From assembly GCF_032062105.1 (NCBI RefSeq), contig NW_026933569.1, positions 1-58,805 of the forward strand: a DNA stretch of 58,805 bases, read 5' to 3'. Positions 7,899 through 58,362 of the stretch are shown piece by piece; position 1 is the stretch's first letter, and every line of letters begins with the position of its first letter. Made by a program: the position numbers and the translations under genes. The notes beneath the pieces are model-generated. The model did not search any database. It was not told the DNA's origin and worked only from the letters and a program-made list of their open reading frames with translations. The stretch comes from Saccostrea cucullata. Its lineage: Eukaryota.

Positions 7899-7931
<33 letters not shown>

Positions 7932-18775: not shown

Positions 18776-19509
18776 CTTTTGTATTCCGTTTTTACAATGA
18801 GCGCCTCTAGGCCAGCTGTTTTTAAAAAATTCATTAGAGAAGAATGCTTTAGATATGCAAGAAACACTACGTACTGACCCTTAAATCTTAACACGCATTC
18901 TCTGTAAGCACCAAAAAATCTTGGAAACGACATGTCTCGGATTTTGATGAAATTTTCACCATAGGTGTGTCTTGGTACAAAACTAGTAAATATGTTGTCG
19001 GAAGTTCCACATGTGCACTTGGTTGCCATGGAGACGGATACATTGAATTCGGCCATTTTTGGCCCATTTTGACGAAATGAAAACGTGAAAATTGAGGAAA
19101 TGTAAATGAATATTTATCGGTATCTAATACACTCTAACAAAAATCATTGGATCATTTGATAACAGGATCTTTTAAGGTGCACAGAGCATATAATCGTTTA
19201 TTCTAGAAATATTCTTCCTGTAAGAAAAAGGTCATGCACAATGATATGGTTTCTAAAAAATTGAAAAATGGGGAAATTGGAATTTTTTAAGATCTTTGAG
19301 GCTAAATAAGAAAAATTGTCCGCGGAAATTTCTCAAATCTTATGTGTGTAATTATACTTAGGGATAAGTAGTGTCATTCCATGAAAAAACATAAGTGGGC
19401 TTTTGCTCCTATTTTTAGTAACATGTATCTATAAATAGATATATTTTAGAAAAATGTGAAATTTCAAATTTTGGCAAAGTTTTAATTGTCATTACTGTAT
19501 AATTAGAAC

Positions 19510-21380: not shown

Positions 21381-21667
21381 TTGGAAAGAAAAATCAATGT
21401 TATACCCGGTAGACGTTGTGTGACTGACAAATACTTATAAAATAATTTAGTGAAATGCACACTATCTGAAGAGGGGCTCTCTTTTCTAATTATAGCACAT
21501 CCACTTATATGTAGCAACTTCTCAGCAAAAGAAGAAAAAATAACAAAGGATTGAAGGAGCTTCATTGATAACATATTTACGAAATATACTGCTGTATTCA
21601 ATATGTCATGAGTATAATTAAGTTTTCCTAGTAAAATAATCATGTGACTGATAAGTATAAAATATAT

Positions 21668-24029: not shown

Positions 24030-27000
24030 TTTCCTATAAATGGCGTAAATATATTTCGCCACGTGATACTAAAAATAGTAATAGGACCCCCCCCTCAACT
24101 TTTGTCGACACTTGCTAGTTGTGGCCAGCTACTGTCATTAAAACCTCAAATTTTACAATATACTTCGTAATTATGCAGCATGACATCTAAAAAGTGCCAG
24201 AAAAAGTGCAATAATCTACATTTTCTCGATTATTCCAGGAATCAATTTTCGACGACCATTGTTGCTTTAAAAAGACATTTTGTACGAAGATTCAAATTAG
24301 CATAAAACTTCAATTTTCCCTAATATTTAGAGTACTTCACATCAATATTACGCCATGTGATACTAAAAATAGATATGGGAAACCCCCTCAACCATTGTCC
24401 ACACCTGCTTAAGGTGTCAAGCTATTGTCATTAACATCTCAAAATTTACAATATACTTCCTAAGTAATCAGCAATCACATCTTTAAAGTGCTTTAAAAGG
24501 TGCAGTAATCTACATTTTCTCCATTATACGAGTAATCTATTTTGAGACCATTGTTGATATGAAATGAAACAAGAGTCCATCCTCAATATTGAGACAATTA
24601 TTGTACAAACACATGTACATTCTGAAAGCATATTGTAGAAAGCTTCATATTTGTTAGGACTTTTAATTGCCATTCTCTGTAACCACTTAAACTTCGTTGC
24701 CACGCATGGTCACCGATTTTGATGAAACTTCACCCATGCTTAGTACTTGACACCAGAAACAAATATCAAAAAAAATTTCGTTGCTAAGTGTCTCGGTTGC
24801 TATGGCAACAGCCGGAAAAGTTTGAAAAATCGAGATTTTCAGCCACTTTAAATCCTGACTGTGGCCTAATAAAAACTAGAAAAAGCAAACAAACCATTCT
24901 AACAAAAACATGACACCTTGATGTCACTTATACTGTAAAGAAACTGTTTAGAATATATCTCTAAGTAAGTGGTAACTAAGGGTACATTTGGAATACATTA
25001 AAAAATGCTGAAATATGCTGAAAAACACTCCATATTCACTAATGGTAGGTGTTACATGCTAAAACTCAATCATCGACTTAAGAAAAACCATGAAAATGTT
25101 TCATCTTAAGTATACAAGTATAAGCAATATTATTCTATAAATAAATTTTATGGTTGCCATGGTAACACAGTGTAACTATGCAAAACCAGTAACTAAGATT
25201 GGGTTAATGCTACTGTCTTGAGGAAAAACATGAAAATTCAAGACTGGCAAATATGCATCCTTAGGACCTTGCAACACCAAAACCATAAGAAAAATTGGGT
25301 AAAATTGCTACTTTGCAGTGTTACCATGGAAACAAAGTACCAGTGCTTAAAAGTGAATTATTTTTCACTGCATTAAGAATTAAACTGCCATATAATCAAG
25401 AAACAAATTAAAGGATTCAGCTTGAATAGTACTTATCTGTTAGAACTGAAGTTGAATATCATATGTTGATAAAAGTTGATGAAGAAAACAACGCTGTTGC
25501 TATGGTAACCAAGAAGGGAAAATGTTCAATTTTGTGAACTTTATATCAATATTAAACCCTGTGTGCCAACTTCTTGCATCCAATTAGAGATTGGATGATA
25601 GTCAAAATTAAAAGTCAGGTTAGCTGTTAATAAATATCAATCATAAAAGTTTTGGGAATCTACATATAAGGGTACGTATCCAAGGAAAGAAAATATTTTT
25701 CAGGTTTTTAAGCATATATTTTCTGCTTATCTCCATAGCAACGCTCTATTTAAAGAATCTAATCTGAATTTTTTCAAATGGGAAAACTAGGACACACCAA
25801 CATCTTTAAAAATTGATCATTAGTTATGAGGAAATGTGCTTTTTTAAAAGATAGGTTCAGATTTAAACAAACAGAGTGTTACTTTGAAGGCTCTCTGTGG
25901 TATAAAAACCTTGGCAACCATTGCCAACCAAAATGAAATATCATATTTTGTTCTTGGTATATGTTTCAAGGCTCTTTTTTCTATTATTTGGTCACATTTC
26001 ATCCTATAATTGTTTTTTATTTTTACGTGTATGACTTTATATAATTCAATGAATATTTTTTTTTACTTTTGAATACTTTGTTACCATAGTAACGTATGTA
26101 ATAGTTGATTTACCAAACATGTTTATCATGCATTTGAGACATCTGACCTTCAACTTTTGGAAACAGTCATTGCCAATTGTTTGCTTTGCCGCAAATGTTA
26201 ACTATGGGGTTCTAAACATGTTAAAAAATGCCATTTTTCGAACTTTAAGACATGTTGCCATGGTAACTATAAAACATAGCAACCAATTTTTGCCTGATTT
26301 CAGTTCAGGGTATCAATGACTTTTATCATAGAGAGTTTGGAGAAATTCTGAGACTATGCGTGCCACAGCTCCTATATAAAATTCCAAATCATTACAGAGA
26401 ATGGCTCTTAATATGAAGCTTCCAACTAGAACAAAAATGCCATTTTTCCTAATATTCAGAGACATATCTATATTTAGCCACCTGATACTAAAAATAGAAA
26501 GGGGAATTCTCATCAACAATTATCCATACCGCCTAGTGGTATCCAGATCTTGTCATTAACATCTAAAATTTTACAAAAGATTTCCTCATTATGCAGCAAC
26601 TACATCTAAAAATGCATGAAAAGGTGCAATAATCTACATTTTCTTAATTATTCGAGTAATCTACTTTTAGACCATTCTTGCCATAAAATGAAACAAGAGT
26701 TCATCCTCAATATTGTGGCAATTTTTGAACAAACACATGTACATTCTGAAAGCATATGGTAGAAAGCTTTATATTTGTTAGGTTTTTTATATGAAGCTTC
26801 CAATTAGAACAAAAATGCCATTTTCCCTAATATTCAGAGACATATCTATATTTAGCCACCTGATACTTAAAATAGAAATGGGAATTCCCATCAACAATTA
26901 TCCATACCGCCTAGTTGTATCCAGATCTTGTCATTAACATCTAAAATTTTACAAAAGATTTCCTCATTATGCAGCAACTACATCTAAAAATGCATGAAAA

Positions 27001-27720
27001 GGTGCAATAATCTACATTTTCTTAATTATTCGAGTAATCTACTTTTAGACCATTCTTGCCATTAAATGAAACAAGAGTTCATCCTCAATATTGTGGCAAT
27101 TATTGTACAAACACATGTACATTCTGTAAAAATATTATAGAAAGCATTATATTTGTTAGGACTCTTTATATGAAGCTTCCAATTAGAACAAAAATGCCAT
27201 TTTCCCTAATATTCAGAGACATATCTATATATTTAGCCACCTGATACTAAAAATAGAAAGGGGAATTCCCTTAACAATTATCCATACCAGCAAGTGGTAT
27301 CAAGGTCTTGTCATTAACATTTCAAATTTTACAATATACTTCCTAAGTAATCAGCAATCACATCTTTAAAGTGCTTTAAAAGGTGCAATAATCTACATTT
27401 TCTCAATTATTCGAGTAATCTATTTTTAGACCATTGGTGCCCTAAAATGAAACAAGAGTCCATCCTCAAAATTGTAGTAATTTTTGAACAAACACATGTA
27501 CATTCTCAAAGCATATTGTAGAAAGCTTTATATTTGTTAGGACTTCTTATATGAAGCTTCCAATTAGAACAAAAATGCCATTTTTCCTAATATTCAGAGA
27601 CATATCTATATTTAGCAACCTGATACTAAAAATAGAAATGGGAATTCCCCTCAACCGTTGTCAATACCAGCTAGTGGTGTCCAGCTCTTGTCATTTAAAT
27701 TTCAAATTTTACAACATACG
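24030..27720. repeat. ~380-bp tandem repeats in the right arm of the foldback element (~6 units, interrupted by an insertion)
   Basis: ATATGAAGCTTCC anchor at ~26411, 26790, 27168 and 27550; degenerate units at 24030-24660. Confidence 0.85.
24667..26407. mobile_element. 1.74-kb non-autonomous TTAA-targeting element (Sola3-like CTC-3' end) nested in the right arm
   Basis: TTAA(24663-24666)|TTGCCATTCTCTGTAA ... TTACAGAGAATGGCTC|TTAA(26408-26411). Removing it restores the host unit GTTAGGACTT-TTAA-TATGAAGCTTCC. Confidence 0.85.
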
Positions 27721-28774
27721 TTCTAATTATGCAGTAATGACAATTAAAACTTTGCCAAAATTTGAAATTTCACATTTTTCTAAAATATATCTATATATAG
27801 ATACATGTTGCTAAAAATAGGAGCAAAAGCCCACTTATGTTTTTTCATGAAATGACACTACTTATTCCCAAGTATAATTACACACATAAGATTTGGGAAA
27901 TTTCCGCGGACAATTTTTCTTATTTAGCCTCAAAGATCTCAAAAAATTCCAATTTCCCCATTTTTCAAATTTTTAGAAACCATGTCATTTTGCATGACCT
28001 TTTTCTTACAGGAAGAATATTTCTAGAATAAACGATTATATGCTCTGTGTACCTTAAAAGGTCATGTTATCAAATGATCCAATAATTTTTGTTAGAGTGT
28101 ATTAGATACCGATAAATATTCATTTACATTTCCTCAATTTTCATGTTTTCATTTAGTCAAAATGGGCCAAAAATTGCCGAATTCAATGGATCTGTCTCCA
28201 TGGCAACCAAGTGCACGTGTGGAACTTCCGACACCATATTTACTAGTTTTGTGCCAAGACACACCTATGGTGAAAATTTCATCAAAATCCGAGACATGTC
28301 GTTTCCAAGCCCTATAGTAAATTCGTTGGTGCTTACAGAGAATGCGTGTTAATGCCTTATTTCTTTATTCCAGAAAGCCCGAATCTGGATCTGAGTGGAT
28401 CATCATGATTAAAAGCTGCCAAGGAGACAGTTCTGATTTCAATAAAATATTTTCTATATAATATTAGAATAGTAAATAGAAAATGCTCAAACCTACAGCT
28501 TAATTTATTTGAACCAGTCGTCAGTCATAGGATTTCTCCAGGAAGTTTTTGCAATGAAATGTTTATTATTACTTACTGTGGTCCTGCCCACCCTTCCAAA
28601 AGTTTCCCACTTCGAACTCTCCAGGATACATGAATGCAATTCTTTTTCCTTAAGCAGGGGAAACCGATTCTCTGAATTTGCTTGCATTTATGAACGTGTA
28701 TTGATAAAACCTTAAATAAGAATTGGACAATATTTAAATTTTCAGATTCTGTGAAATCGGATATTATCCAAATA

Positions 28775-31035: not shown

Positions 31036-34000
31036 ATGCCAGAGTTTTCCTTACTTGTGATTTTTCACCTTGGAAATATCCTTATAATCGCAGGTAGGTA
31101 AAAAATAATTGTGTTATCTTTTTAAGTTCTTAAAATTATTTTGTAAATATTATATAGGAATCTGAGGCTCTTATTTTCAATTTTCTTTATTTTCAAGAGC
31201 ATGTTTATCTAAAAATAATTCTAAAAGAAAAAAGTACAATTTGCAAAGTTTTCGTCCTGAACACAAATAATTCTAAAAGAAAAAAGAATACTATTTTCAA
31301 ATTTGTCGTCCTTAATACATATCAGCATGACTTTTAGTGAAGATGTGTCAAATTCATTTTTTCACCTAAAACGAGGACCATTGAAGTTTATTGAATAGAT
31401 GGAATGTAATTTGATGTAAACACTTATTTTTTCCCACCTTGGTGGGCAAATGATTTTATTGTACAATATGCCTCATTGAAAACAAAAATTGAAATCCGTA
31501 AAGAAATATTTCTTAAGCTTATGAAAAAGGCGTCAATGGATCATTATAGGTATGCATATCTTGATGCATCATTAGACATATCGTCTAAACCTATTTGTTT
31601 CGTTAGTAGGTCTGTAATGTCCCCAAGTAAGCTTTTCGTCGTAAAAAAATGTGCCAAGGTTTTTCTGATTCATTGAAAAGGAAGGTTCTGATATTTTGAA
31701 AACGTCCGTTCATCTTTGTGATAAAGAAAAATGTTTCAATCACTAACAATGTGTATGTGTGTCTTTAGCAACCCACAGATCAAAATAACACCACCATCTT
31801 AACAATTTATTAGACATGTTTTAGTTATGTTAGTGAATATCATTTGTACCTAAAACAATAAAGAGTTGCATATAGTTTTTTCTTTAAATATTACCGAAAA
31901 AATGAATTAGCAAATGTGAATAAGGAACGATGAATTAAAGACGTTTGAGAAATTAAGATGTCCAATACCAACTAGTATGTAAAGAAATTTCATTTGTAGA
32001 CGTTCTTATTATTTCAGAAAGCTTGTGTACTCTACCAGATGAATTAGATGGCGTATGGTACAGTGCTCAGAAAGGACCACTGACGATTAACTCCACACAC
32101 ATTCAAGGCTACCCTATCCACATGTCTGCCAGCGTTAGCTCCCTAGATTACGAATGTATTGAACAGCGGGACAGAATATATATGTTCAGGTAAGTTTTTT
32201 TTTTCTTTTTACTACAAAACATTCTTTTTAAAATTTGTATTTTGTGCTTGAATTTTAATCGGCAATACATGTATATCATCACTACTGAAACCTTATTTTA
32301 CCGTTAACATAATCAATTTATTTTAATCATGTATGATTCTCTTGTTAATAGATCTACTGAGACTGTCCTTATATTCGGGGGACTGGTAAACGGCTTTATT
32401 TGTTTAGAATTCTGGAGGGTTTCTGCCACAAAGTATTACTACTTTCACAAAACAGGTATGTGTTTTCAATACAATTTATAACGGTAATCGATTCGATTCT
32501 ATAGGAATGTGTAATAAATCTCGTCTGCTTTTTGAATATGTCAATGATGTAGTTAATTTTTAAAAATTAATTTAAAAGGCAAAATACTGATGTAAATGTT
32601 CGATTTCTTTACTCGCTCTTCGGCTCATATGACTTATCGTGATGCTTTTGTCATTTATGCATCGGTGTAAAAATGGACCATTAAATATGTAATGATCGCC
32701 ATTCAAATATGCATTACTAAAATTGTTAGTTACGTGAACTGAAAGAAATCGCAGATTTTTCTACCTCCGTTTCATGTTCGGATGTTTTTACTTAAAATGA
32801 TAAGGACCAAATAACATGGTCTTTACTTATCCCAATCATTCAATATACAAAAATAGGCTCCAAGTACGATCAATTTTTAAACTGAGGCAGTCTACTGACT
32901 GTAAGCTGATGTTACAGATTTAGAGTCAGAATTTCGAAAATTCAGTATAATGGCAATGTTATCAAATATTATCTATAAAGTTCAGCTTTCATTCCTTGAA
33001 TTTAACACTCCTCTGACAACACTGAGCTTGTTTTTTTTTGACAGATAACACAATACATGTTTCTTCTAAAAAATGCCATTTATTATAAAATGACCACATA
33101 TAATATAATACATAAAACTGAATAAAAAAGACTGCATGGAGACAATGTATTTTTAAAAAAACAATTCATGGGGAAAAAATTCAACAATTATGCAAGAACA
33201 AATTGGCCTCCCAGTATGTGACTATTACATATCGCATAATATTTATAAATTTGCAAAATATGTGGCTTAAAAAATGTGGCCAAAATTTATCTATCACATG
33301 GCCGTATAAAACTGACTTGTTTCATACTAATTGATAAGTCTGTTCTTATTGTGTCATTGACAACGGAAGGCTCTGTCTACCTGTTCCAGGGATCCATATT
33401 CTTGTAGATTTCATAGATTTTTAAAGATTCATCACTATTCATTATGTTCACCTTTTTCATTATAGATAGACATTTCAGGGACTTTGACTTTGAGTTTCAT
33501 TCTGAGGACATAAGTATTTATTTCAGAAAGTACAGCTAGTTTCCATTTGATTTTTTGTAGCCATCAGTCGGACCAATAATGATCATATCAGAGGAGGATT
33601 TAGCGGGCAAAGTCCAACCTTCGATGTGACATGCAGCGAGTCATATGACACGACATACTTTGTTACTTTAATAAAAGATGGTATATATTATATACAATAC
33701 TTTTATTTAAATAAATGACGTTAATTTCCAAATTAAAAAATAATTTTGATGATTATAATAATAATAGATCGTGAAAAACAAACAATCCCACCAATAAACA
33801 AACAACTGTAATGCATGAAATGTTAATTTCAGACCAAATTTCATAGCGTAGTGTACTTTTTATTGAATTTAAAGATGGCGTGATACTAGTTTATAGCATT
33901 ATAGTTTATAGTTTAATTTAATATTGAATTCGAATAATTAAATATTACTTAAATTTACACATATACACACACTCTCAAATTTTATCAAAAGTAAAAAATA

Positions 34001-35632
34001 GAATAATATGAAATAAAAATAAGTTAGAGGATAGAACCCTCTAAAAGTAAATCGCAAGAATATCGCCCGGGGCGGTTCATTTGGATCATCCATTCAAATA
34101 CCATTTCAAATCTTTAATTATTATTAAAGATCCATCTAAAAAGCCGGGGATTGTACAAAACTCAAAAGAGAGCGCGTAACTAATACAATTATGATTTCAT
34201 TATAGGTTCAGTAGAGAATGGATCATCGGAAGCTACTTGTGCTACAGACCTTTTGAATAAATTCTCATTGGTTACTATCACCGAACATAATGAAGCTTCC
34301 AGTTGTGAAAATAATACAATGGATGGATGTTCTGATAAAACCAAAATGTCTTTTACTTACCATTCTTCATGTCAATCTCAGCACAAATTCTCTGGTACGT
34401 ACTGGTTTACATTTCCTCATCATTATCAACTTTCAACCATATGGATATACTTTACTTATTTCAATGGCTTCTGATCCCATTTGATGTTTTTGACGAGGTC
34501 TGTATTTGCTATTTTTCCAATATGTATGTTATAAATGAACGTTTGAACATGATTACAGTTTGTCGTATTCATGTTTCATTGTATAAATTGTTACATGCTT
34601 CTTACAGCGGGAGGATTTTGGACATGCCTAAGAAGCATAACTAGTAATGGTTATACCTATGTCTCGCTCTGGAACAATGACACTACTGTGACTTCTACGT
34701 ACACCAGATCCTATGAATTGGTCAGAGAACAAACATATAAATTTGCCTGCCTCGTAAGTCTTTTTTGTGAATAAAACAAATAAAAGGAATATTTATATCC
34801 CAGCATAGACATAAAATCTTTTCAATTAATTTTACAAATAATGGTCCTTTTCATTTTGATCTGTTTGCAGGTTGTGAAAGGAACATCTGCTACATTATTT
34901 CCAAAAATTTGTTCCGATTCTACCCAAACACCGAATTCTGTTGCCTCTCCGGGACTGAAACTTACGTTTTCTGGTGCTGATTCGACCTGTCGTAAGTGAT
35001 TTTATTAGTTTCAATATACAGGTATAAGGCCTGTAGTTTTACAACATTTGCACTTGTGCTTGAGAACAGATGAAATTTTCCAATAAAATCACAAGGGCTA
35101 TCAAATCATAATACATGTAAAAGTTAGTTAATTATATAACAAAGATAAAGTTTTAAATTTTTATTTATTTTCAATATAAATTATTTATGATTATATATAT
35201 TGAAAACCCTATTTGAAGCATATTGTGCTAAAATATAGACAAAGCATCATACTCCAAACTAAAGAAACGTTGTTGTTCTTAAATATACGTTCTGATTTAG
35301 CAATGTGTACATTTGATGATATACATGTGATCTATTTATATTTCTTTTTGTTCACAGACATCACGACGGAGGACGAATCTGATATTCTGTACTACGTCAT
35401 TATTATACTTGGATCTTTATTCATCATATCTTTCATCATTTTGTTAATTATATTACGCAAGAAAGGAAAGAAGTGTAAAAGAAAGCTGGCTAAGTCACGT
35501 GCCATTGGATCACATGAAATTATCATGTCTCAACCACCAATAAAAATAGAACCTTTGTATTTAGACGATACTCCTGGAATTCTTCGAGAAAAGACTGATG
35601 TATTAAGTATTTTTGAATTCAACACGAAATAG
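31036..35632 (+). CDS. Gene B: Cys-rich type I single-pass membrane protein, 394 aa (uncharacterised family; ectodomain starts CxLPxxLxGxW)
   Basis: Exons 31036-31093 (signal peptide MPEFSLLVIFHLGNILIIA), 32018-32189, 32352-32455, 33561-33680, 34206-34394, 34608-34753, 34871-34991 and 35358-35632 (TM ILYYVIIILGSLFIISFIILLIIL + RKKGKK). All introns are GT-AG and in phase; 1185 nt open. Exon-by-exon homology to gene C. Confidence 0.9.
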
Positions 35633-39849: not shown

Positions 39850-42800
39850 ATGTTATCTAGCTTTTCCTGGACATCACTTGCAATTTGTCTCATCTTCGTA
39901 AGATTATCAGGTACGTTTAACAATTTAAAATCAAATTCAAAATTTTATTTTTAACTTCCTCATGTGATGCTTTATCAAAATATATTTTATGTGCTGGAAA
40001 GAGGACTAAAACCGTTTTTGACAAAATATTTATTCATGAAGTAAGTCGCATGATAAAACTCACTCAGCATATGTTTAGCACAAAGATGATTGGGATTTCT
40101 TTTCAAGCATTTGCATTGGAATTACAAAGCACTCAGAAAAAAATTAAGAAAGATCATACAAGTAGTAAACATCGATTTAGGGAGGAATATCATTCTCTCT
40201 CTTTCTCTGATGGGACACATATCTCTAAATATCTAACATAAAATCTTAACATCTTTTTATTTGTTAAGTGATATTAATCTCAAAAATTTATTAATCTTTA
40301 ATCTAAACAAATGTGAATTATGCTCTTAACAAAACAACATGAGTAAAAAAAGCTTCAATATTATGTATAATTTATAGTATAACAGGGCTTAGGCGAACAA
40401 AGATTAAGACTCTGACAAAATCTTCTATTCAACCATTTTCCATTTAAAATTCGAAAACCCATGGTTGGGAAAAAGTCGCACATAAAAAACATGAAAAGAC
40501 AAGATCAAAATGACAAGGCATGAAATGCATTGTCAATTACTCTATTATTTATTTAAATATGCCAGTGAAAATAAATTTCAAAATGAAAACCAAATTGTCA
40601 CTAGAAATATGATTTTATAAAAGACGAAAAACAAGAAAGAAATAGTGTTTTCCTTCTATGAAATATGGAGTAAAGGGAATAGATTATTTGTCATTGTCTT
40701 TTATGTATTTTTATTAAAAGACAGAAATCAAACGTATTACAGCATTATTTATATATTGAATAACTTGCTTGAAACCTTAGCCCTCATTTTCAATTAAAGT
40801 TCTAAAGGATATACAGACAAAAAGATAACATGGTTCTTGGAATTTCATATGCTAATATCAGAAATCGATTCAGCATACCGATTGAGTATAAAACAATTAA
40901 ATTCTGATCTCTGTCCACTCAAAGTCAATCTGAGTAATGCACAAGTTTATTTAACCATTGATTCAATTTAATGAACAAACATAATGAACCCAAGTAACAA
41001 AATGGGGATTGTTCAATTTGTAAAGCGTTAACTTAACATTGATGAAATTCTCGTGTTTTCAAGCAACTATAGAAAATCTACATCCTATTTGCTGCAAATA
41101 TAAAAACGATCAACCCATGGTGCCTGGGATATTTAATTCCAACGTGTACAAAAAGCGTACATTGATTTTCCCTCAGCTTTATCTTTTATTGAAATTTTCT
41201 CTTGATTTTTCAATTGGAAGAGACACGCTTCATTATAGATTGACAAGATGTTCTGTTTTAAGGCAAGTATGTGACTTGCATGATGACGATGCTAAAATTA
41301 AGATATGTTTACCACGAAACTGGCATACTGACATGTCAAATGAAAAGTTTAATAGATTTGTTAAGTGTAATAATTAAGCGTTTGCAAATACTCACATTAT
41401 GCTAAAGTGCTCTTTAGCTTTGCTGAATTTTAAAAAATGCACTGTTTCTATATATTTTTAAAATATATATAATAATGTAAGCTTTTGTCTTCGGTAAGTA
41501 GACGGGATTAGGATGTAATGCTATTTATGTGAAAATAAGACAAAATCTCAAAAGCTTCAGACTCATTATGTTGAAACTTGACACTTTTTATGCTATGTTT
41601 TATTAAAACGTAATTCTGCGTCGTAAAATACATAAAGTGCACATTTTCTCTTTTCAATTGTTTGTATTCATACTTTACAACTTAACAAAGAACTCCAGGG
41701 TTGCATGTTTAAGAAGCATACATTTTATCAAAGCTTTTCATTGTGCAATTTCTAAATCCATTTGTCATTTTATAATCATTATGCATTATGCACCTTAGTG
41801 GATTTTGAAAGTAGACTATTAAACAATGTGATTAAATGGACAAGGCAAACACACGCACAGTTCTTATGTACGATATAAGATTTTAAATCCCATACGAAAC
41901 CGTCATGATGTCATTGAAAAATGAAAACAAAATGCAATCAAAAATGCACCTGGCCCCAGGATCATGAAACAGACTTAGACATGTTAAACCTAAGTCACAT
42001 TTTCAATCACCTGTAAAATGTTTCTTAATTATTGATCTTAAATTTGCAAATAACAGCACTTTCATGAATCAAAATTGAAACACATTTCAATTTTGATCTG
42101 TTTGCCTTCTATAAAATTTAAAAAAAGCGTGAGAATTTTGACTTAAGCATAAGATGTTTCATGATCCCGGGGTCAGGACTATAATAATCAGAACTCTATT
42201 CTCTGTCATGAGAGGTAATTTTAAACCATTTTGTCTGAGGACAAAGTTAACTTAGCTAGCATTTTAAAACTTTGGTCTTTAAGAGTTGATCTTAAGACTG
42301 AATATTAATGTTTTACACACAATTGCAGAAAAGAGTTCTCTATCGAAAATAAGTAGAATCACTTATTTGAAGACTGTAATTTATTTTTCATTGAATTTTG
42401 ATCTGCTCGTGAACTCTGAGTTAAATGACCAAGGACTTCTGACAAAATTGGCCATATTTTGTACACCAAATATTCATACATATAAATCAATTATATGTAT
42501 ATTAAAAGTTAAAAAACTTGCTTATTGCCTTATTTTGTATGCATGCCTTGAAGTATAAATTTTGGGCCATTTCTTGCGAAAGTAATGAAAATTGCATGGT
42601 TTTCTGGCAACTTATACAAGAATTCTGCTGTTATGAAATTTAAACTGAGAACCCCAGTTTTCCCTCCCCGATGATGAAAACAGTATACATGTATGAGTAA
42701 TGCAAAAGATGAAGAAAACGAACAGTGATAAATATATAAAACACATTAAAAGAATACAAACATATCAAGAGGGCATAAAACACGAGTCCCTGCAAATTGC

Positions 42801-45800
42801 AGAGGTAGGATCAGGTGCCATGAGTTTTGTTGATTGAATAGAGTTCTTAATGTCCATAAGGAGGTTACATAATTATTATTGCCTTGTATTCAGTAGGTAG
42901 ACGTTTCAAATCATTTTCTCTAAAAAAAAAAAACACCAAAAAACTTTTGATTAATTTCGATTTATCTAGTGACATTTGCAACATGACAACTGAAAAGACC
43001 AAACAGTTATATTCTAAAATATATGTATTGTAAGAAATTTTTTAAATCAAGAGATGCAGTTAACAATATGGAATTTAGAAAGAAAATAATCTGTGAAAAT
43101 GTATTTCATTGTTTTCGAAGTGAATATGAAATTTTTAAAGAAAAGAAAATTTAAGCCATACGGCTATTATTGCTTTTGTAGCAGATTTTATAATTATGGC
43201 ATGCAGTAATACTTCAGATGTAGTTTACACAAATTGACCCATTAAACTTTGGAGGTGGTCAGGTGAAGGGATTTAATTACCCTATATAATTTGCAATAAA
43301 GTTTAAATAGTACCACCCCGGCGATTTTAAAGATTCATAACAAAATAAAAAGGAAATGATGTGACACTCCTGCATTTTTAAAAGAACAATGTAAATTGAA
43401 ATAGATTTGTTCCAAAAGTAAAGCAATTGACATTTTGGGTACATTGTGTTCTTGCAAATTCTAACTGCATTAAAGAATTCTTTTGAGAATGACAACATAT
43501 TAAATAACCTCTGAAGTTAATAAGAGCTAACTAAAAATAATTTTTAACATTTACTGAAATTCACAATGCCTCTCATCTTCATGTTTTAGATAAAATATTC
43601 CAGTGGATTATTTTAATATAACACTAGGATGCAGCATTCCATAAAATCGTTTAGCTGATAGTATTTGATTGCAGAAAAACTCAAATTTTGTGGCAAGTAA
43701 TTTAGACCTACAAAGGTCATTATAGATATATAATAAATATAAAAAAAATAAAGATACCTCTCTGCAAAGGCTGAAATAAATTTTTTTTTTAAAAAAGTGC
43801 TAAAGAGAGATTGAAAAAATTCCCTAATTGGGTTATTTTTAGTTTAATCATGAAATATGGAAATTACAGACGGTATTCAAGCTCACAAATTCATTCAAGC
43901 AATGCCAATAAAGAGCTGAGTAAAGTCTGACCTCTAAATCAGCAGGGATTGGATCAGGTGCCATGGAGGAGTAATTAAGTAAACCAAGCCGACTGGTCAC
44001 AATATCCGTGTGCTCCTTGTCAGGAACAGGGGAAAATTCCGTAGACTTAATTAATATATACATGTAGATTGTATTTACTTACAAATCATTGTCGACCAAA
44101 GGATTTGCGAAATGATGACTGCTGATATTCTTGTTTCATCAAATTGATAGTCAAAAGCTTACCTTGTTCATGAAATTGTTCGTACTTAGAGTCATGCTCT
44201 TGCGCATCTTGTCAATTGAGAAAATATACTAGTACCCTATTTGAGGCGATCAGTGTATACTACCACATACATGTAAGTGAGGGAGGTTGACAAGTGAAAA
44301 AATGAAGTCATTACGTTTATCACGAAGTGTTATAGTTAGGTGACCATTTACGTTTTTTGTAGTAAAAAATCCAAATATGATGATTTGAAATAACTTTCTT
44401 GATTTCTTTTTTTTCAGAAAGCGCCTGCACATTTCCATCAGAGATAACGGGCGATTGGTACAGCGCTTATAAAGGAAAACTGTCATTCAATTCTACCCAT
44501 TTAACGGGATATCCCATTTACATGTCAGCCGCCGTGCAATCATTAGATTTTGAGTGCTACATAAACAGTGATAGAAAATATCTGTTAAGGTATTTGTGAA
44601 AAATAGGTTTGCATTTTTATAAAGGAAGATTTAAATTATGTTTTACTATGAATCAAAAAATGAAAGATCACATAAAGAAAACACATTTAATGATTCCGAC
44701 GATATTGGAATTTTTCAAGATCAAGTGCGCCATGATTACATAATGTTACTGCGAGCTAATATATGCAATATCATTGTATGATTAGGTTGGTGATAGCACA
44801 TAATAATTAAAATGTGGATTTTGTGGGGTAGTTAAAATTGAATTTCTTAACTCCAACGCCAGTCGAAAAAAGACCATGAAATATTTTATATTCAACAAAA
44901 TCCATGGTATTAATATTTCAAATTATACAATCCAATACTAAACACATTTAGCAAAACTTTGCACATTATTTATTACTATGGTTAAATTCACATCCTATAG
45001 TTTAATAGGTTTAATAATTTGACATGAAAATAAATGGGATTAAAAATAATCGATAATTAGTTGTCCAGTGTAGTATGAAGCATCAATTGTAAAAGATTTG
45101 TGAATTTTCAAGAATTTAAAAAAAAAAATGAATAATTGCAGATAAGGTTATCTTATCTCATTTTTAAAATCCTTATTTTAGAGCAACAGAGACAGCCCTT
45201 GTGTTTGGTCAATACATTCGTGGTTATTTATGTGTAGAACTATGGAGAGTTTCCAGTACAAAGTATTACTATTACCACGGAACAAGTAAGTAAAACAAAC
45301 TCAGTATCATATACGGTTCATGAATGAGCATGATTATATTTCAGCTGGTATCAAAAAATCAAGGTAATAGTTTCTATGACTTTTTTTGTTGAGTTTACAA
45401 TAAAACATGACTTGGCAACGTAAGTCATAGACTTGAAATTCAATTTCCTTTTATCTTAAGTTTATAATCACAATTTAACTAATCAATATTTTCTAAAAAG
45501 CCATCAGTTTGACCAATAATGACAATATATTTGGTCGTGTGGATGCCGTGACGGTAGACCTTACAAGCGCTTGTAATGAAGTTGAGCCCTACAGTACTGG
45601 AAAATTTATTACATTAGTCAAGGACGGTATGGAACTCCTTGCCTTACACCTGAAACTAATTTTATCTCGCAACTACACCGTTTGATAAATAATGTCCCGT
45701 TTCTTAAATGCAGAGTTTGTTTATGACACTAAACAATGATTACCACGTATTAAAAGGATACTGAAATGTTTTTACTAATGTTCATACACTTTGAATCATC

Positions 45801-48619
45801 TTGTATGTCATATGAGTTTTTAATCAGCGATATCAATTTCACTCACACCTACATTATATAAGTGATAAAAAGATAAATACCGAGCATTTCTTCATTGCTA
45901 TGTTTCAAAGAAAATTTTGAGTCCTTAATTGGTATTCCAAGACGTGATTTTCCAGAACTTAACGTCGATCGAAACTTTAGAAGAAGAATACTGAGAGGTT
46001 ACTTTCAGGCATCAAAACGCTTTTAAATGGGTCTAACGAACTTAGAAAAAAAAAACTTTGTAGGAGAATACTAAAACATGTTTTTCAGGCGCAATAAATC
46101 TTTAAAGGTTTAATGATTTTTATTGTCATTTAGCAATATCTCCTACCAACAACGACCACGTTAAAGGAGTTATTGATATTCTTAAAAATGGAACGTTAGC
46201 GGAGACTTGTGATATAGCAGAACCGTACAACACGACATCATTTGTAATGCTTGTCAAAGATGGTAAACATCGGCAAATATACATAGTTTTTGCGTATTAT
46301 TTTGTGTTGTGAAGAATTTGTTTTCTCTATACAAAATATCTATTGTTGTCCCCTTATAATCTGCTGTTATCTGGCAATTTTTACCTCTTTTCCTACCTTT
46401 AGCTCAATTTGATTATTTTGAATCTCCAAACACGTTTTTGGTATAGTTGAAAAATTGCACGTGGGCATTTGAGCACTTTATACACTGCATTTGTCATATT
46501 ATTTTCATGTATGTGATACCTTTTTTGATAAAGCCTGCACAATGTGATTTTTGCATCATTTTCTTCTTGTTTTGTTCACGGCTCTTGATTTTGTTTTTAT
46601 GTGCTAGATATTTGTCAGCATTCACTTTGAGCGAAAAGCACATGCACAATTAATCAAATGCAGATCCAAAGGTGAGAGAATGTTATTTGAATATTCCATT
46701 ATATGTTTAAAGAAATTATCAATTTACTCCTCAAAATTGAATTAAATATGTAACTTTTATCATGCAAGTGCAATAAAGAATAGAATTTAGATTTACTGCG
46801 GTAAATAAAAAAATAATAAATCTGCGTCTGTCACAGTAATAATAAATTTAATGCATGAATTAATTGAACAAACAGTCATAACTTGTGATAACGATAAAAG
46901 CAAAAATCCAAAAAGTGTTTTTGGTCGAATTATAATATTACTTGTCAGAAGCATTATCCAGCAAATAACTTATGAATACTAATTGGCATTAAAATAAGAT
47001 TTATGTTAAAACTTCAGTGTACCTTTCTTACATTAGGTACAATTACGACGGGAGCCTCAGAGGCTACGTGTGCGACTGATCTGTTGGCTTCATATAGCTC
47101 TGTTTCAATAACCGACTCTACCGGAAGTACGTCATGTTCCAGTAACACAATGGATGGCTGTACCGACAGGACAGAGATGAGGTTCACGTATGACGGTGGA
47201 TGTGGAAACACACATAAATTTTCAAGTAAAATCAATTTTACATCTTTTAAGGTCTATATTATTAGATTTATTTCGAATATGTCCTGAGAGACAATATTTT
47301 ACTACTTACGTCATACAAATTACTCTATACATATTAAAATGGAGAAAAATATATTATACTACAATATTAACCAAAATTTTTCAGTTTAATATATTCAAAA
47401 ACAAAATTTTCTTTCTTTTATCTGTGTGTTGGGTCGATTCATTGAACCTGGTAGTATTAGAAATGGATGTTAAAGGATCTTTTTTATTTGAATTATTATT
47501 GAAGAAGTAAATTATTGTCATATTGTAGCTGGTGGTTTCTGGACCTGCATGCATAGTATAAGTAGCGGAGGAAGCACCTACCTCTCGCTCTGGAACAATG
47601 ATAGTACAGTTGTTGGGACCACGTCCTACGCATACACGTCTGGAGTAAACTACCAGTTTGCCTGTTTAGTAAGTATCACGAGTCATATAATTACAACCAA
47701 AACAAAAAGTTAGTCTAATTTCAATTTCTTTATTCGTCTGTTGATACATAGGTTTACCGTTTTGATAGTCTTATTTAAAGCAAGTTAGTCCTTTCCTGTT
47801 CTGATATGCATGGGTATATTGTTTTGCAGGTTATCAGTGGTGTGTCCGCCTCCATGTTCCCAAACTATTGCTCAGACAGTACACAGACAGCATCCACAGT
47901 GTCATCTCCAGGTCTGACAATGTCATTTACAGGAGCTACTCAGACTTGTTGTAAGTAATTTACATTACCTTTGCATGCTGTTACTCTTAAAATAGTTCCT
48001 CTTTGTATCATACGTGTATAATAATACTAAGCAACATATATTGGCGCTGCTTTTATTATTTATAAGAATGCATTAAGATAATAAACCATAGTAATGTAAG
48101 TGATTTTTATTTCAAGAAACAAAGAACATCTCCAGCAGGAGAATGTCTATAATGCTTTAGATCTTACTTTCAGATGATGAAGTAGAAGGTGGATCAAGTG
48201 CTGTGTACTACATCACAATAGTATTAGGTGCCTTATTTATCATAGCCTTAATTATATTGATTATTATTCTGAAAAAGAAAGGCTATTGTTCTCTTGACAA
48301 ATGCAAAAAGCAGCGACCCAGTTCACCAGAAAGCAGTGTGGAGCAGGGAGAACACGTGACTAACACAGTGTTCAGAATGAACAAATTAGATCCAATCCCA
48401 GGATTCAAAGCAAAGAGGCCACTTCGAATTGGGCCAATTGTGGAGCCTAATCTCGACATCCTTCCAAAGGTGGAGCCCCTGTATGCGTTGTCAGACAAGA
48501 AGGACACCAGTAAACCTGCAAGACGAGGTTCGCTATCCAGTCTATTCACTTGTGATGTTTCTGCATTTTTAATTGATAGACATATTCCTCCACCTGAAAC
48601 TGTTAAACGTAAAACATAA
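39850..48619 (+). CDS. Gene C: paralogous Cys-rich type I membrane protein, ~452-453 aa, with duplicated exon 4
   Basis: Exons 39850-39910 (MLSSFSWTSLAICLIFVRLS), 44418-44589, 45182-45285, 4a 45501-45626, 4b 46134-46262, 47037-47225, 47529-47668, 47830-47950 and 48174-48619. Exon lengths 172/104/189/121 are identical to gene B. TM YYITIVLGALFIIALIILIIIL-KKKG. Confidence 0.9.
41949..42177. mobile_element. MITE with ~23-bp TIRs in intron 1 of gene C
   Basis: CCTGGCCCCAGGATCATGAAACA vs TGTTTCATGATCCCGGGGTCAGG (21/23). Confidence 0.75.
42705..42822 (-). repeat. Dispersed repeat, probably the 3' tail of a non-LTR retroelement; related copies at ~36783-36875, ~43848-44020 and ~56630-56790
   Basis: Shared pattern GATGAAGA(T)AACGAACAGTGAT...AATACAAA...AACACG...AGAGGT(A/G)GGATCAGGTGCC...GGAGGAGTAA, seen wholly or partly in four places. 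The strand is inferred from the tail orientation. Confidence 0.55.
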
Positions 48620-49971: not shown

Positions 49972-50513
49972 AAGTCAGAATCTTCTGACCACGCTGTCAT
50001 AGCAATAGTTCACAGCACACATAGTAACTGGAGCACCTCTCTGCACGGTGAGTTAAATTCTGATCTTCTTTTAACTAATCAATGTCATCAACAACAATTC
50101 GCGCATGCGCAATGAATTAAAAGATTTATTTTCCATTTGCAGACGATGATACAATATCTGTGGACAGCGTAGATGAGGACAATCCATTTAATTTCTACAA
50201 TATCGCTAAGTTCGTGCTTCTTCCCAAAATTGTCTCCAAGAAGAGTTTTGATGTTGGAGCTCTTGCAGATCCGAAACGAAACACACTTCACGATATCTTA
50301 GAGATAAAGAAATCAAAACTTAAAAGAGAAAGCAAGGCTTCCGAGGAGCAGGAGAAAAAAGAGGACAAAAAGGAGGAAAAAGACAAAGAGAAGGACAAGG
50401 AAAAGGACAAGGAAAAGGAGAAAGACAAGAAAAAGACAACAGGAAAACCAAAGCTTGAAAAACAAAGTTCGAAAGAACCTGGGAATAAAAATCGTAAAAT
50501 GTCTAAAAAGTGA
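49972..50513 (+). CDS. Gene D: small protein with Lys/Glu/Asp-rich tail (5' end uncertain)
   Basis: Exons 49972-50047 (KSESSDHAVIAIVHSTHSNWSTSLH, G|gtgagt) and 50143-50513 (ttgcag|; DDDTISVDSVDEDNPFNF...KEKDKEKDK...). A possible first exon is 49726-49749 (MSCVVCQG, weak donor). Similar to gene E across the same phase-1 junction. Confidence 0.7.
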
Positions 50514-55418: not shown

Positions 55419-58362
55419 CTAATATTTTTGTGTTTCTAAAGTATCCGTAGAATTAGCTGCAATGTCGGAGAAAGTAGCTTTCTCGGTTTGTTGAGGAGGC
55501 TTCTTTGTGAAGAAATCCCACATTTGTTTTCGAAAGAATTTGATGATGATAACAATAAAACCGATGATTATGATGATGCAGACAACAATGGCAAAATAGA
55601 TGGCCCAATTTGTGGAACTCTTTATCTTTTTGGGGGAGTTTGCATGTCCCGTTCCCCTATTAGGTGGAGGGGCTGCAAAACAAAATTATTTATATCTATT
55701 AGTAAATATATTAGATAAGCCAATCTGTATCTACAATGTACTTATAATAAAATAATTATACATATAAGATCGAATTTTAATTCTTTTTTTTAGAATTTCA
55801 ACTAGGTCTTTAGTTTGACGTGGTATTTTGACAAATGATAATTTTAAAATGACCGCTTCTATGCAACCCTCCATTTGACACAAGAAATGACGGAGAAAAA
55901 AATTTATTTTGTAAGGTATATTTACCTGGTGTGGTTGGTCGACAAATTTCTGAAAAAGACGTAGAATTAAAAGTAATTCATCAATAATAAAAAATACTTT
56001 TATATAAATTTCTATTGATACAACATAACATTTATTCAAAATAAAATTGATCTTCACCATGAATTTCTTTTGACTTCAGGGTGAGAAATTCTGTATTCTT
56101 TGAGGCATCTGTGCATGTATCATTAAATAACCGAAAAGTTGCAGAGGATTCGTTATGGGTGATTTCCTATAATGAAAACTAACTCATTAAATTAAAATAT
56201 TTTAATCTAATTAATTTCAGACAAATCGGCTGCATTTATTTTGTTAGACTTAAAACATTATTTTGAGATGGAATTTAAAGTAAAAAATATATACTAGTAT
56301 ACAAAAAAACGTGCATCTATACGTTATTTTACTTATTTTTGAGTTTGGTAATCACAACCAAAAACTTCTGATTTATAATTAATCTTGAAAACAAATTATT
56401 TATATTTCATACTCACAATACAAATAAATCCATGGTCTCTTTTTGATATAGAGGCAGTATCAGCTGTCCACGTATACAAATATGTGACGTCATTTTCCGT
56501 TTCATGAAACAGACAATTCACAGAAAGGTTATCTGAAAATGTTTAACAAAAACAACAAAATATTAGTAGCCGGTAATATTAATTATCATTACTGGGATTG
56601 GTACCATATAATTAGATTTAAAAAAATGTGTATAAAGAAGATGAAGTTAACAAACATCATTGATCTAAAAAAAAATAAATCTATGAATAATATTTGTACA
56701 TAAACACACCCCTCCCCCTGAAAATTAATAGGTGGGATCATGTGCCAAGGAGGAGTAAGCATCGATCTCCGTTTACCGACTATACTCGCAGTAAGCCCTA
56801 TGTTTCGAGCAAGTTGACGAAACCTTCCAAAGTCAAATTTGGTGTAAAAAAGGCCTATTACTTGAAATTAGCATGAATCGGTTCAGGTGTCAAGAAAAGA
56901 GATATTTCATGCAAAAATATTTTGAAGTATGTCCTCTGTACCTGGTATATGGATACTGGAATGGCAAGATGGACTTGTGATAGTGAGCTGCGTGTTCTTC
57001 AGACAACCGTTGACACTACCATTTACACAAACGTTTTCCATACCATTTTCTTCGGAGTTAAGGTTTACGAAGGATTTCCGCAAAAAGTTGGGACATTCGA
57101 TACTTACTATATCTGCAGTTGAAACTATTAAAAGAAAACAATTGTATTTTTTTGTCTTAAAATTTATAAAATATTTTAATGCTATTAATATTTTTGTTAC
57201 ATTAATGTCGAACCCTGTAATGTGCAATTTTTGTGACAGGGTCTATTTCAGTACTTCGTGGCTAAAGTACTTTCTAGATTTTTAAAAAATAATTTTCTTT
57301 TATTTTACATTTTGTTAAATCGTATCTTAAAACTATAATGGCGGTGAAATATTCTTCAATATTAAGTAACTTAAAAACAAAGTTAACATTTCTTACCATT
57401 TTTAATTAAGCTATACATGTTGTCGGTTGTCTTGGGAAGACTGCACACAACATCCATAGATACGTTTACAGGATTTGAATAAGCATACACATTCTCCTTA
57501 ACTGTGGAGTCTAGGGGTGTCTCAACATAATAAATATAATTGTCAGATCTCACTCGTTCAAAACTAAGGCAAACAAACACGCTGACTTCCATAGAAAACA
57601 CGTTGATATCTCTCGAAGATCTATAGCAAGAAAAAAAATCATATCATGTTTTTAAAACAGATAGTAATCGTTGCTGCTGTAGATGTCAAAAGAATATCAA
57701 AAATCATATAAAAATTCGAATAACAACTTATATGTAGTACTGAAAACCTTGCATAAGCATTTGATTAATTTGATTTACATGAATATATTTACAGATATCT
57801 CATAGGTCACAACATTATTCCATGAAAATAAAGAAAGATATGAAAAGGGAAAAATATAATTACTTGAGAAGATAGTATGTTCCATTATTTTCTGAACAGA
57901 GGAAGTCAACTGACGTCACTCCTGGTAAAATGACGGGGTAATCATAAATAACAGACTCGCCGAATCTGAGGAATCCCTTGTCAGAACTGATCCACGCTCC
58001 TCGTTAATATCCGCCGGGAACTGACATGACGATGCAGAAATCGCTAGAAAAATAATTCATTGGAACATTTTACGGCACTGTGAGTGATTGATTTTGCAGA
58101 CTCTTTAAACAAACAACATTGATTCCGATTTGTGTCAATATCAATTATCCTTTACAATGCTCCACAACTGGTTTCATTGTAATATAAGGAATGTTTAAAT
58201 ATATTCTAATAGCCATACACATGGACACCAATATTTACAATTCCACTATTTTAAATAGAAATTAAAATTAAACGTACTTTTCAAAATCGATAAACCTGAA
58301 GGTTTTTCTCACAAAATACATGTAGTTCTAGCAGAAACTTAAAATAATTTTTTGTGGAGTTC

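What the first reader, a model, noticed from the sequence alone, without database searches (positions are those of the whole stretch)
45501..46262. Tandemly duplicated, diverged exon 4a/4b in a surface-protein gene: candidate mutually exclusive splicing
Seen: exon 4a (45501-45626, 126 nt: TISLTNNDNIFGRVDAVTVDLTSACNEVEPYSTGKFITLVKD) and exon 4b (46134-46262, 129 nt: TISPTNNDHVKGVIDILKNGTLAETCDIAEPYNTTSFVMLVKD). Both are open, phase 1-1 and bounded by AG/GT. Each is homologous to the single exon 4 of gene B (AISRTNNDHIRGG...TC...YDTTYFVTLIKD). The ends and the Cys are conserved while the middle is highly divergent. Each encodes only part of a domain, so including both would likely break the fold. 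Inference: two ectodomain isoforms with swapped variable loops, a small-scale analogue of Dscam/FGFR-type specificity switching in an uncharacterised receptor family. Neither exon appears in the ORF track.
Basis: partly seen in the sequence, partly recalled or inferred. Interest (0 to 1): 0.75.

Follow-up and report, generated by a model that had tools for sequence, protein, structure and literature searches.

The report
Either-or exon pair in oyster receptor
An oyster gene for an unstudied cell-surface protein carries two copies of one exon, and related oysters splice in either the old-type copy or the fast-changing copy, which is predicted to swap part of the protein's outer barrel, though use of the old-type copy in this species is likely rather than shown.

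Summary
In detail: 4a (45501-45626) and 4b (46134-46262) are open, AG/GT-bounded, phase 1-1 homologous exons (45% identical) in an oyster type-I membrane protein gene related to DUF7042/7043/7044 proteins. Mutually exclusive use is shown in relatives: RefSeq lists 4a-only and 4b-only isoforms for Crassostrea virginica, C. angulata and Magallana gigas, and Logan-assembled proteins gave 10 4a-only, 13 4b-only and 0 double forms. 4a is the conserved, ancestral-like copy (80-83% across genera); 4b diverges faster (64-69%) and usually adds N-glycosylation sequons. AlphaFold puts exon 4 at the end of a lipocalin-like barrel, carrying the family's only invariant cysteine. Against: in 8 RNA runs laid on the window (a related, coded organism) 3>4b was seen in 7, but 3>4a, 4a>5 and 4a>4b in none; the introns around 4a were often retained instead. 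RefSeq for S. echinata and O. edulis lists a skip-both form, not a 4a form. No docking/selector pairing, frame barrier or classical steric branch point was found; a conserved element of about 40 nt after the 4a donor is the best regulatory candidate. Ligand or specificity switching is untested. Verdict: a real new member of a known kind, of moderate interest.

The parts
39850..39910 (+). Gene A exon 1, coding part (ATG, signal peptide)
   Evidence: translation matches the N-terminus of P0013; joint 39910>44418 in X21, X22, X2
44418..44589 (+). Exon 2 (start of barrel 1, GxW motif)
45182..45285 (+). Exon 3; strong donor CAA|GTAAGT, phase 1
45286..45500 (+). Intron 3; CTAAT branch motif at -19, purine-rich acceptor end; retained in some RNA contigs
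45501..45626 (+). Exon 4a, conserved ancestral-like alternative exon (126 nt)
45627..45666 (+). Element of about 40 nt at the 5' end of intron 4a, conserved across genera as judged from read-through translations; holds CTAAT at +33; candidate splicing regulator (role inferred)
45627..46133 (+). Intron 4a-4b (507 nt, 24 AG dinucleotides, TTAAT at -21); single-copy apart from the second haplotype; often retained; read-through stop at 45683-45685
46134..46262 (+). Exon 4b, derived, faster-evolving alternative exon (129 nt) with two N-glycosylation sequons; the only form seen spliced in the laid runs
47037..47225 (+). Exon 5 (start of barrel 2)
47529..47668 (+). Exon 6
47830..47950 (+). Exon 7 (end of barrel 2)
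48174..48619 (+). Exon 8: transmembrane helix and cytoplasmic part; internal donor after 48527, or read-through to the stop at 48617-48619
50143..50513 (+). Alternative last exon (K/E-rich cytoplasmic tail of P0013/P0005)
33561..33680 (+). Single exon 4 of the upstream paralogue, gene B (about 32018-35632)

Best explanation
Exons 4a and 4b are a tandem exon duplication, older than the split of the sampled oyster genera, that is spliced mutually exclusively in Crassostrea and Magallana and likely also in this species, giving two membrane isoforms predicted to differ in the last third of the first lipocalin-like barrel. How it works: (shown in relatives) mRNAs carry exon 3 > 4a > 5 or 3 > 4b > 5; (predicted) either exon supplies the same strand, short helix, invariant cysteine and closing strand, so one copy, and only one, completes the barrel; (shown) 4a keeps the sequence type of the single exon of ark-shell and scallop homologues, while 4b has diverged and mostly carries N-glycosylation sequons; (inferred) 4b is the default choice because the 4a acceptor lacks a good pyrimidine tract and the 4a donor is used inefficiently, which leaves many transcripts stalled with the flanking introns unspliced; (inferred) the conserved element just after the 4a donor binds a tissue- or stage-specific splicing factor that switches on 4a>5 and blocks 4a>4b; (inferred, untested) the swap changes what the outer barrel binds or how far it is shielded by glycans.
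For: RefSeq/nr isoforms: C. virginica X1 = 4b, X2 = 4a at both annotated loci (P0007/P0017 vs P0019/P0020); M. gigas and C. angulata likewise (P0058/P0055 vs P0028/P0071/P0072). Logan-assembled proteins spanning exons 3-5: 10 4a-only, 13 4b-only, 0 with both, 0 with neither, of 23 (two clusters were listed only in part, 15 of 37 and 15 of 26 members). Cross-genus identity of 4a 34/41 and 33/41, of 4b 29/42 and 27/42, of constitutive exons 72-91%. Second haplotype: 4a 1 change in 126 nt, synonymous, vs 108/2268 in six introns (p=0.043); 4b 6 in 129, three of them non-synonymous. Exon tree (18 rows, 42 columns): all 4b copies form one clade, 99/98, apart from 4a and the outgroup exons. Models: same elements from 4b (E123-126, H134-137, E150-154; block pLDDT 95-97) and from 4a (E123-126, H133-136, E149-153; 94-95); Cys138 is the only invariant column in 115 family members. 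No 4a>4b joint in 8 of 8 laid runs. Read-through translation after the 4a donor is 9/12, 8/12 and 5/12 identical in three other lineages, against at most 6/12 in 200,000 random window positions apart from the site itself.
Against: In the 8 runs laid on the window (coded organism A or unlabelled; most reads 90-95% alike, so probably not the same species) 3>4b was listed in 7 and 4b>5 in 4, but 3>4a and 4a>5 in 0; raw-read depth was very low and contigs drop rare forms. Contigs instead ran unspliced through the 4a donor in X1, X2, X4 and X5. The RefSeq model of the second haplotype (P0013) has 4b only, and S. echinata and O. edulis are annotated with 4b and skip-both forms (P0004, P0006) but no 4a form among the members listed. 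The newer C. virginica record P0016 is 4b and carries no isoform label. Three M. gigas UniRef gene models include both exons (P0085-P0087), though one of them also fuses two genes. The 4a vs 4b polymorphism difference is not significant (p=0.12). No cis mechanism was demonstrated. Fold matches are middling (best Z 8.0) and show no function.
Confidence: 0.72

Rival explanations
1. In this genus 4a no longer yields a membrane isoform; it acts only as an alternative acceptor whose donor is not used, so 4a-containing transcripts keep the intron, hit a stop 19 codons later and are held in the nucleus or decayed, which tunes the level of the 4b protein.
For: 0 of 8 laid runs list 4a>5. X4 contig 9 starts exactly at 45501 and runs unspliced to 46135 with no cover of intron 3; X1 and X5 contigs run unspliced from exon 3 to 4b, while introns 2 and 5 have zero depth in 4 of 4 runs. 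Read-through stop at 45683-45685. No 4a isoform among the listed S. cucullata, S. echinata or O. edulis records.
Against: 4a amino acids are 80-83% conserved across genera, and the two observed changes within close relatives are both synonymous, which a purely regulatory exon would not need. The same retained forms occur in Magallana-type contigs (P0037, P0255-P0257), where 4a>5 is also used, so retention does not exclude use.
Confidence: 0.17
2. 4a and 4b are two independent cassette exons (either, both or neither), not a strict either-or pair.
For: Skip-both RefSeq isoforms in S. echinata and O. edulis (P0004, P0006); double-inclusion gene models P0085-P0087; double inclusion stays in frame.
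Against: 0 of 23 Logan proteins spanning exons 3-5 have both or neither; no 3>5 or 4a>4b joint in 8 of 8 laid runs; skipping removes two predicted strands and the invariant cysteine, so skip forms are more likely unproductive by-products.
Confidence: 0.05
3. 4a is a dual-use exon: read-through of its donor into the conserved intron start makes a short secreted one-barrel protein that acts as a soluble decoy beside the membrane form.
For: 3>4a read-through proteins exist in Logan contigs (P0037, P0255); P0037 folds as a complete barrel, mean pLDDT 87.9; the first 12 read-through residues are similar across genera; retained-path contigs have depth of the same order as the 3>4b contigs (13.8 vs 14.3, 72.8 vs 87.9, 17.4 vs 20.9; contig depth is a poor measure of level).
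Against: Tail length and end differ even between Magallana-type alleles (179 aa vs 215 aa records) and the substitutions are not conservative, which fits constraint on the RNA rather than the peptide. The contigs continue into 4b and on, so the stop is premature and would normally trigger decay (own knowledge of the exon-junction rule). No poly(A) end in the intron was seen.
Confidence: 0.06

Closest known systems
Tandem-duplicated mutually exclusive exon pairs (human catalogue, PMC5740500 section 7 and passages read; PMC8373072 abstract read; FGFR2 IIIb/IIIc recalled)
   Same: Two homologous in-frame exons of similar length, embedded in a folded domain, one used at a time; conserved over long times; like many clusters in PMC5740500 it is not explained by frame shift, U12 sites or steric branch points. 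As in FGFR2 (recalled), the swap changes the second part of an extracellular domain.
   Different: Uncharacterised mollusc family with lipocalin-like barrels, not Ig domains; no ligand known; tissue regulation not shown; strong asymmetry of rate between the copies.
Crassostrea virginica alternative oxidase duplicated exon 10 (PMC5589949, abstract read); coq-2 exons 6a/6e (PMC7434440, listing and 3 passages read)
   Same: Mollusc genes with a duplicated exon spliced alternatively; in AOX one copy is conserved across taxa and the other carries novel changes, as here.
   Different: AOX uses alternative last exons and both genes are mitochondrial enzymes with measured regulation or function; here the exons are internal, in a surface protein, with no functional data.
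Arthropod Dscam1 exon clusters (recalled)
   Same: Alternative exons encode part of an extracellular domain of a surface protein.
   Different: Two exons, not arrays of tens; no docking/selector pairing found; different fold; no evidence for self-recognition or immune use.
DUF7042/DUF7043/DUF7044 proteins (Pfam PF23069-71); APCDD1-like two-barrel architecture
   Same: Weak Pfam hits in the two barrels; ESM Atlas first hit is a mollusc DUF7042 cluster, 0.92; signal peptide, two beta-barrels and one membrane helix, with APCDD1 8e0p at Z 5.4, rmsd 3.7, 113 aligned on barrel 2.
   Different: Only paralogue P0008 passes a Pfam cut-off (27.4 vs 27 bits); the APCDD1 match is no better than unrelated barrels, so homology and Wnt or lipid binding are not shown.

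Membership tests
Tandem-duplicated mutually exclusive exons (criteria as in PMC5740500) | Neighbouring exons with sequence similarity, same frame, similar length | tested here: met
Tandem-duplicated mutually exclusive exons (criteria as in PMC5740500) | Junction from upstream exon to 4b, bridging 4a | tested here: met
   3>4b listed in 7 of 8 laid runs; 13 Logan proteins
Tandem-duplicated mutually exclusive exons (criteria as in PMC5740500) | Junction from 4a to the downstream exon, bridging 4b: orthologues in Crassostrea/Magallana | tested here: met
   10 Logan proteins and 6 named records with 3>4a>5
Tandem-duplicated mutually exclusive exons (criteria as in PMC5740500) | Junction from 4a to the downstream exon: runs laid on this window | tested here: inconclusive
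   0 of 8 runs; low raw depth, contigs drop rare forms, tissues unknown
Tandem-duplicated mutually exclusive exons (criteria as in PMC5740500) | No junction joining the two exons | tested here: met
   0 of 8 laid runs and 0 of 23 Logan proteins; 3 UniRef gene models do join them
Tandem-duplicated mutually exclusive exons (criteria as in PMC5740500) | Both exons encode the same structural elements within a folded domain | tested here: met
   predicted models only
Docking/selector MXE (Dscam type) | Competing intronic RNA duplexes above chance | tested here: not met
   18 region pairs, ungapped helices, best p=0.21 against 200 shuffles each; bulged duplexes and covariation could not be tested without other species' DNA
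Steric distant-branch-point MXE (OGDH/tropomyosin type, PMC7969005 passages) | Branch point under 50 nt from the upstream donor | tested here: inconclusive
   CTAAT motif at +33 exists; its use as a branch point is not mapped
Steric distant-branch-point MXE (OGDH/tropomyosin type, PMC7969005 passages) | Long AG-free zone from that branch point to the downstream acceptor | tested here: not met
   24 AG in the 507-nt intron, first at +86; ordinary TTAAT at -21
Frame-shift/NMD-enforced or U2/U12-incompatible MXE | Double inclusion shifts frame, or U12-type sites | tested here: not met
   126 and 129 nt; donors GTATGG and GTAAAC are not the U12 consensus (recalled consensus)
FGFR2/Dscam-type specificity switch | Isoforms bind different ligands or partners and are tissue regulated | not testable with these tools
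   no ligand known; tissues of the runs not given
DUF7042/7043/7044 proteins | Pfam gathering score | tested here: inconclusive
   P0013 22 bits vs cut-off 27 for DUF7042; paralogue P0008 27.4 passes; Atlas cluster hit 0.92
Lipocalin/calycin superfamily | Eight-stranded barrel with N-terminal GxW and a ligand pocket | tested here: inconclusive
   many lipocalin-like rows at Z 5-8, none clearly above background; Foldseek no E<=0.001 for barrel 1; pocket not examined

The most novel reading that the evidence does not exclude
Oysters keep an ancestral and a fast-evolving, glycosylated version of a ligand-binding barrel in one surface receptor and switch between them by tissue or challenge; the default 4b copy is under diversifying selection from a pathogen or a gamete partner while 4a preserves the old function, and read-through of the 4a donor adds a soluble one-barrel decoy. 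The exon pair would then mark the binding face of a large, wholly unstudied invertebrate receptor family.
Probability: 0.15. Interest if true: 0.7.

Novelty: new member of a known kind. Interest (0 to 1): 0.42.

Why it matters
Conserved either-or exon pairs are among the splice events most likely to be functional (PMC8373072, abstract), and few are described in molluscs. This one gives a natural swap experiment inside an uncharacterised family of 362 clusters at 50% identity: two ectodomains that differ only in 42-43 residues. It points to the segment to test for ligand binding and shows a case of unequal evolution after exon duplication. It is not a new splicing mechanism, and the isoforms already stand, unremarked, as X1/X2 in RefSeq for three species.

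Tried and rejected
RNA pairing: a first duplex scan timed out; the ungapped-helix scan found nothing above shuffles in 18 of 18 region pairs; inverted repeats were AT-rich and 70-87% complementary; of 5 folded splice-site windows one gave z=-1.97, a stem around the 4b acceptor (46060-67 with 46139-46), rejected because it is one of five tests and organism A has deletions at 46060 and 46062. Rfam: one chance row, E=0.75. Steric branch-point model rejected in its classical form. Idea that the whole 4a-4b intron is unusually constrained: 16/507 vs 108/2268, p=0.12, not supported. Metagenome scan for genomic DNA of other oysters gave 1 locus with a 20-residue match and no family exon hits, discarded, so no cross-species intron alignment or covariation test was possible. 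Foldseek on the whole model gave only low-TM rows. Remnants of 4a in the 4b-type paralogues on C10330 and C23601: none. A second duplicated exon 4 in other family members: none above background in the window or the fetched loci (the C4918 stretch gave no family hit). Six rows were dropped from the exon tree because the pattern did not cut them out (gene B of three species, P0107, P0110, P0114). Literature: no paper holds DUF7042, DUF7043, DUF7044, PF23069 or LOC105321884 or six further locus/protein ids; topic searches listed nothing on this gene; supplements were not searched and could list these loci. Earlier scan notes: nothing. Complex prediction was not used: no partner is known.
Full report
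Observation. 4a (45501-45626, 126 nt) and 4b (46134-46262, 129 nt) are bounded by AG and GT, are open in the phase-1 frame and translate as stated. They are 45% identical to each other and 41-48% to the single exon 4 of gene B. Among 401 AG..GT-bounded open segments of similar length in the window, only 4a (87) and gene B exon 4 (81) score against 4b above the background of 30 or less.

The gene. Gene A has a signal-peptide exon (ATG at 39850), exons 2-7 for the ectodomain, exon 8 with the membrane helix, and alternative 3' ends. Named protein records sit on contigs of the same lengths as the window's contig and its paralogous contigs and are labelled Saccostrea cucullata, so the window is oyster DNA. 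The assembly holds a second copy of the locus on C19497, about 95% identical and read here as the other haplotype, with both exons intact. Paralogues on C10330 and C23601 have one 4b-type exon and no trace of 4a. No other family member in the window or in the fetched loci has two exon-4 copies. The family is large: 362 clusters at 50% identity, with weak hits to DUF7042/7043/7044.

Evidence for mutual exclusion. RefSeq/nr lists for C. virginica an X1 with 4b and an X2 with 4a at both annotated loci, and the same for M. gigas and C. angulata. That such models rest on RNA junctions is my own knowledge of the pipeline, not a call. Independently, proteins called on Logan contigs that span exons 3 to 5 split into 10 with 4a only and 13 with 4b only, none with both and none with neither, of 23. 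Two of the clusters were listed only in part (15 of 37 and 15 of 26 members), and these counts are distinct sequences, not expression levels. The only double-inclusion forms are three UniRef gene models of M. gigas (P0085-P0087), one of which also fuses gene B to gene A.

Evidence against, or missing. Eight RNA runs were laid on the window; most reads were 90-95% alike, so they probably come from a relative. The joint 3>4b was listed in 7 of 8 and 4b>5 in 4 of 8; 3>4a, 4a>5, 4a>4b and 3>5 in none. Raw reads were few (1, 3 and 1 reads for 3>4b) and contigs drop rare forms, so this is not proof of absence. Instead, contigs ran unspliced through the 4a donor in X1, X2, X4 and X5. In X4 such a contig begins exactly at the 4a acceptor (45501) with no cover of intron 3, which fits 3>4a splicing followed by failure to use the 4a donor; in X1 and X5 intron 3 is kept as well. 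Introns 2 and 5 have zero depth in all four runs, so this is not genomic DNA. The same retained forms occur in Magallana-type contigs (P0037, P0255 for 3>4a read-through; P0256, P0257 for intron 3). RefSeq for S. echinata and O. edulis lists a form that skips both exons and no 4a form among the members shown.

Evolution. 4a is 83% and 80% identical to its C. virginica and M. gigas counterparts, in the range of the constitutive exons (72-91%); 4b is 69% and 64%, the lowest. A further unnamed lineage has a 78% identical 4a (P0003). Between the two haplotypes 4a has one change, synonymous; 4b has six, three non-synonymous (4a vs introns p=0.043, 4a vs 4b p=0.12). The one 4a difference listed for organism A is also synonymous (further rows were not shown). 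Ark-shell and scallop homologues have an exon closer to 4a (51-61%) than to 4b (36-48%); the mussel exon is about equal to both (41% vs 38%). In a tree of 18 exon-4 peptides all 4b copies, including O. edulis and the two paralogues, form one clade (99/98) apart from 4a and the outgroups; the root is only a midpoint and six intended rows were dropped. So the duplication likely predates the sampled oyster genera, with 4a ancestral-like and 4b derived. Twelve of 13 distinct 4b-type sequences carry an N-x-S/T sequon within the exon, 0 of 6 distinct spliced 4a sequences do, and the window's own exons have two and none.

Structure. AlphaFold2 on the 4b isoform P0013 gives 287 residues at pLDDT 90 or more, two all-beta domains and a membrane helix. 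Exon 4 (residues 113-155) supplies a strand, a short helix, Cys138 and the last strand of domain 1. Cys138 is the only invariant column in 115 family members. A natural 4a-containing record, P0037, folds to the same elements. Both domains resemble lipocalin/avidin-like barrels at middling scores (best Tp0751, Z 8.0, rmsd 3.5, 95 aligned; APCDD1 Z 5.4 on domain 2), which shows no function. The double and skip forms were not folded; that skipping would break the barrel is inferred from the loss of two strands and the cysteine.

Mechanism. Frame shift and U12 incompatibility are excluded by the sequence. A branch-like CTAAT lies at +33 of intron 4a, within the 50-nt steric limit described for OGDH (PMC7969005, passages), but the intron has 24 AG dinucleotides and an ordinary branch motif at -21, so the classical distant-branch-point model fails. 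No docking/selector duplex exceeds shuffled controls. What remains is an element of about 40 nt right after the 4a donor: its read-through translation is 9/12, 8/12 and 5/12 identical in three other lineages, against at most 6/12 at random, while the sequence after 4b shows no such likeness. The changes are not conservative and the tail length varies, so the constraint is more likely on the RNA. I could not obtain the other species' DNA, so this rests on translations. The most likely scheme, inferred: a purine-rich 4a acceptor and an inefficient 4a donor make 4b the default and leave stalled intermediates; a regulated factor acting at the conserved element turns on 4a>5. PMC5740500 (section 7) reports that many human clusters are likewise not explained by frame, U12 or steric rules.

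Comparison and novelty. This is a member of the tandem-duplicated mutually exclusive exon class by the criteria of PMC5740500 when the Crassostrea and Magallana orthologues are counted; for the window's own species one criterion (4a>5) is open. The nearest mollusc precedent seen is the duplicated exon 10 of C. virginica AOX, with one conserved and one novel copy (PMC5589949, abstract). The likeness to FGFR2 IIIb/IIIc and Dscam is recalled and is one of arrangement only. Searches for the domain names and eleven identifiers or names found no paper, topic searches listed none on this gene, and supplements were not searched.

Verdict. Real, conserved, likely functional; a new member of a known kind in an unstudied receptor family. 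Confidence 0.72 in the full explanation for this species (higher, about 0.9, that the pair is mutually exclusive in Crassostrea and Magallana). Interest 0.42.

Noticed in passing
window 48174-48619 and 50143-50513: Gene A has at least three cytoplasmic ends: read-through of exon 8 to a stop, splicing from an internal donor after 48527 to a K/E-rich last exon, and in relatives a third tail (P0015, P0018, P0067).
   Followed up: partly
window 45285 to about 50143: One contig of run X6 joins exon 3 directly to the last exon, skipping exons 4-8 in frame (loose end); probably a rare mis-splice.
   Followed up: no
window 32018-35632 (+), 55521-58003 (-); C19497:685056-688967: Gene A lies in a cluster of at least four family members; gene B exon 4 is also the most variable exon between haplotypes (79% vs 89-100% amino-acid identity), so this segment may be a general variability hot spot.
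   Followed up: partly
C10330:13738-25965, C23601:86434-89808, C23601:99270-100697: Two dispersed gene A copies keep only a 4b-type exon and are annotated as ending after exon 7 without a membrane helix (P0008, P0009), so they may be secreted; a third is a fragment whose exon 4 has lost the invariant cysteine.
   Followed up: partly
window 45561-45576: Perfect 16-nt palindrome inside exon 4a; no fold support above shuffles.
   Followed up: partly
window 8400-10990 (+): Two long open frames (360 and 518 codons) after an acidic/Thr-rich exon at 7589-8071; the first has a P-loop-like motif and the second ankyrin-like stretches, resembling an nSTAND-type NTPase-ankyrin gene (recalled resemblance).
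   Followed up: no
window 15225-18747, 18888-21385, 24050-24667, 26405-28352: Tandem arrays with a unit of about 370-380 nt, and a 2-kb inverted duplication (18888-20835 vs 26405-28352, 93%), probably satellite or transposon derived.
   Followed up: no
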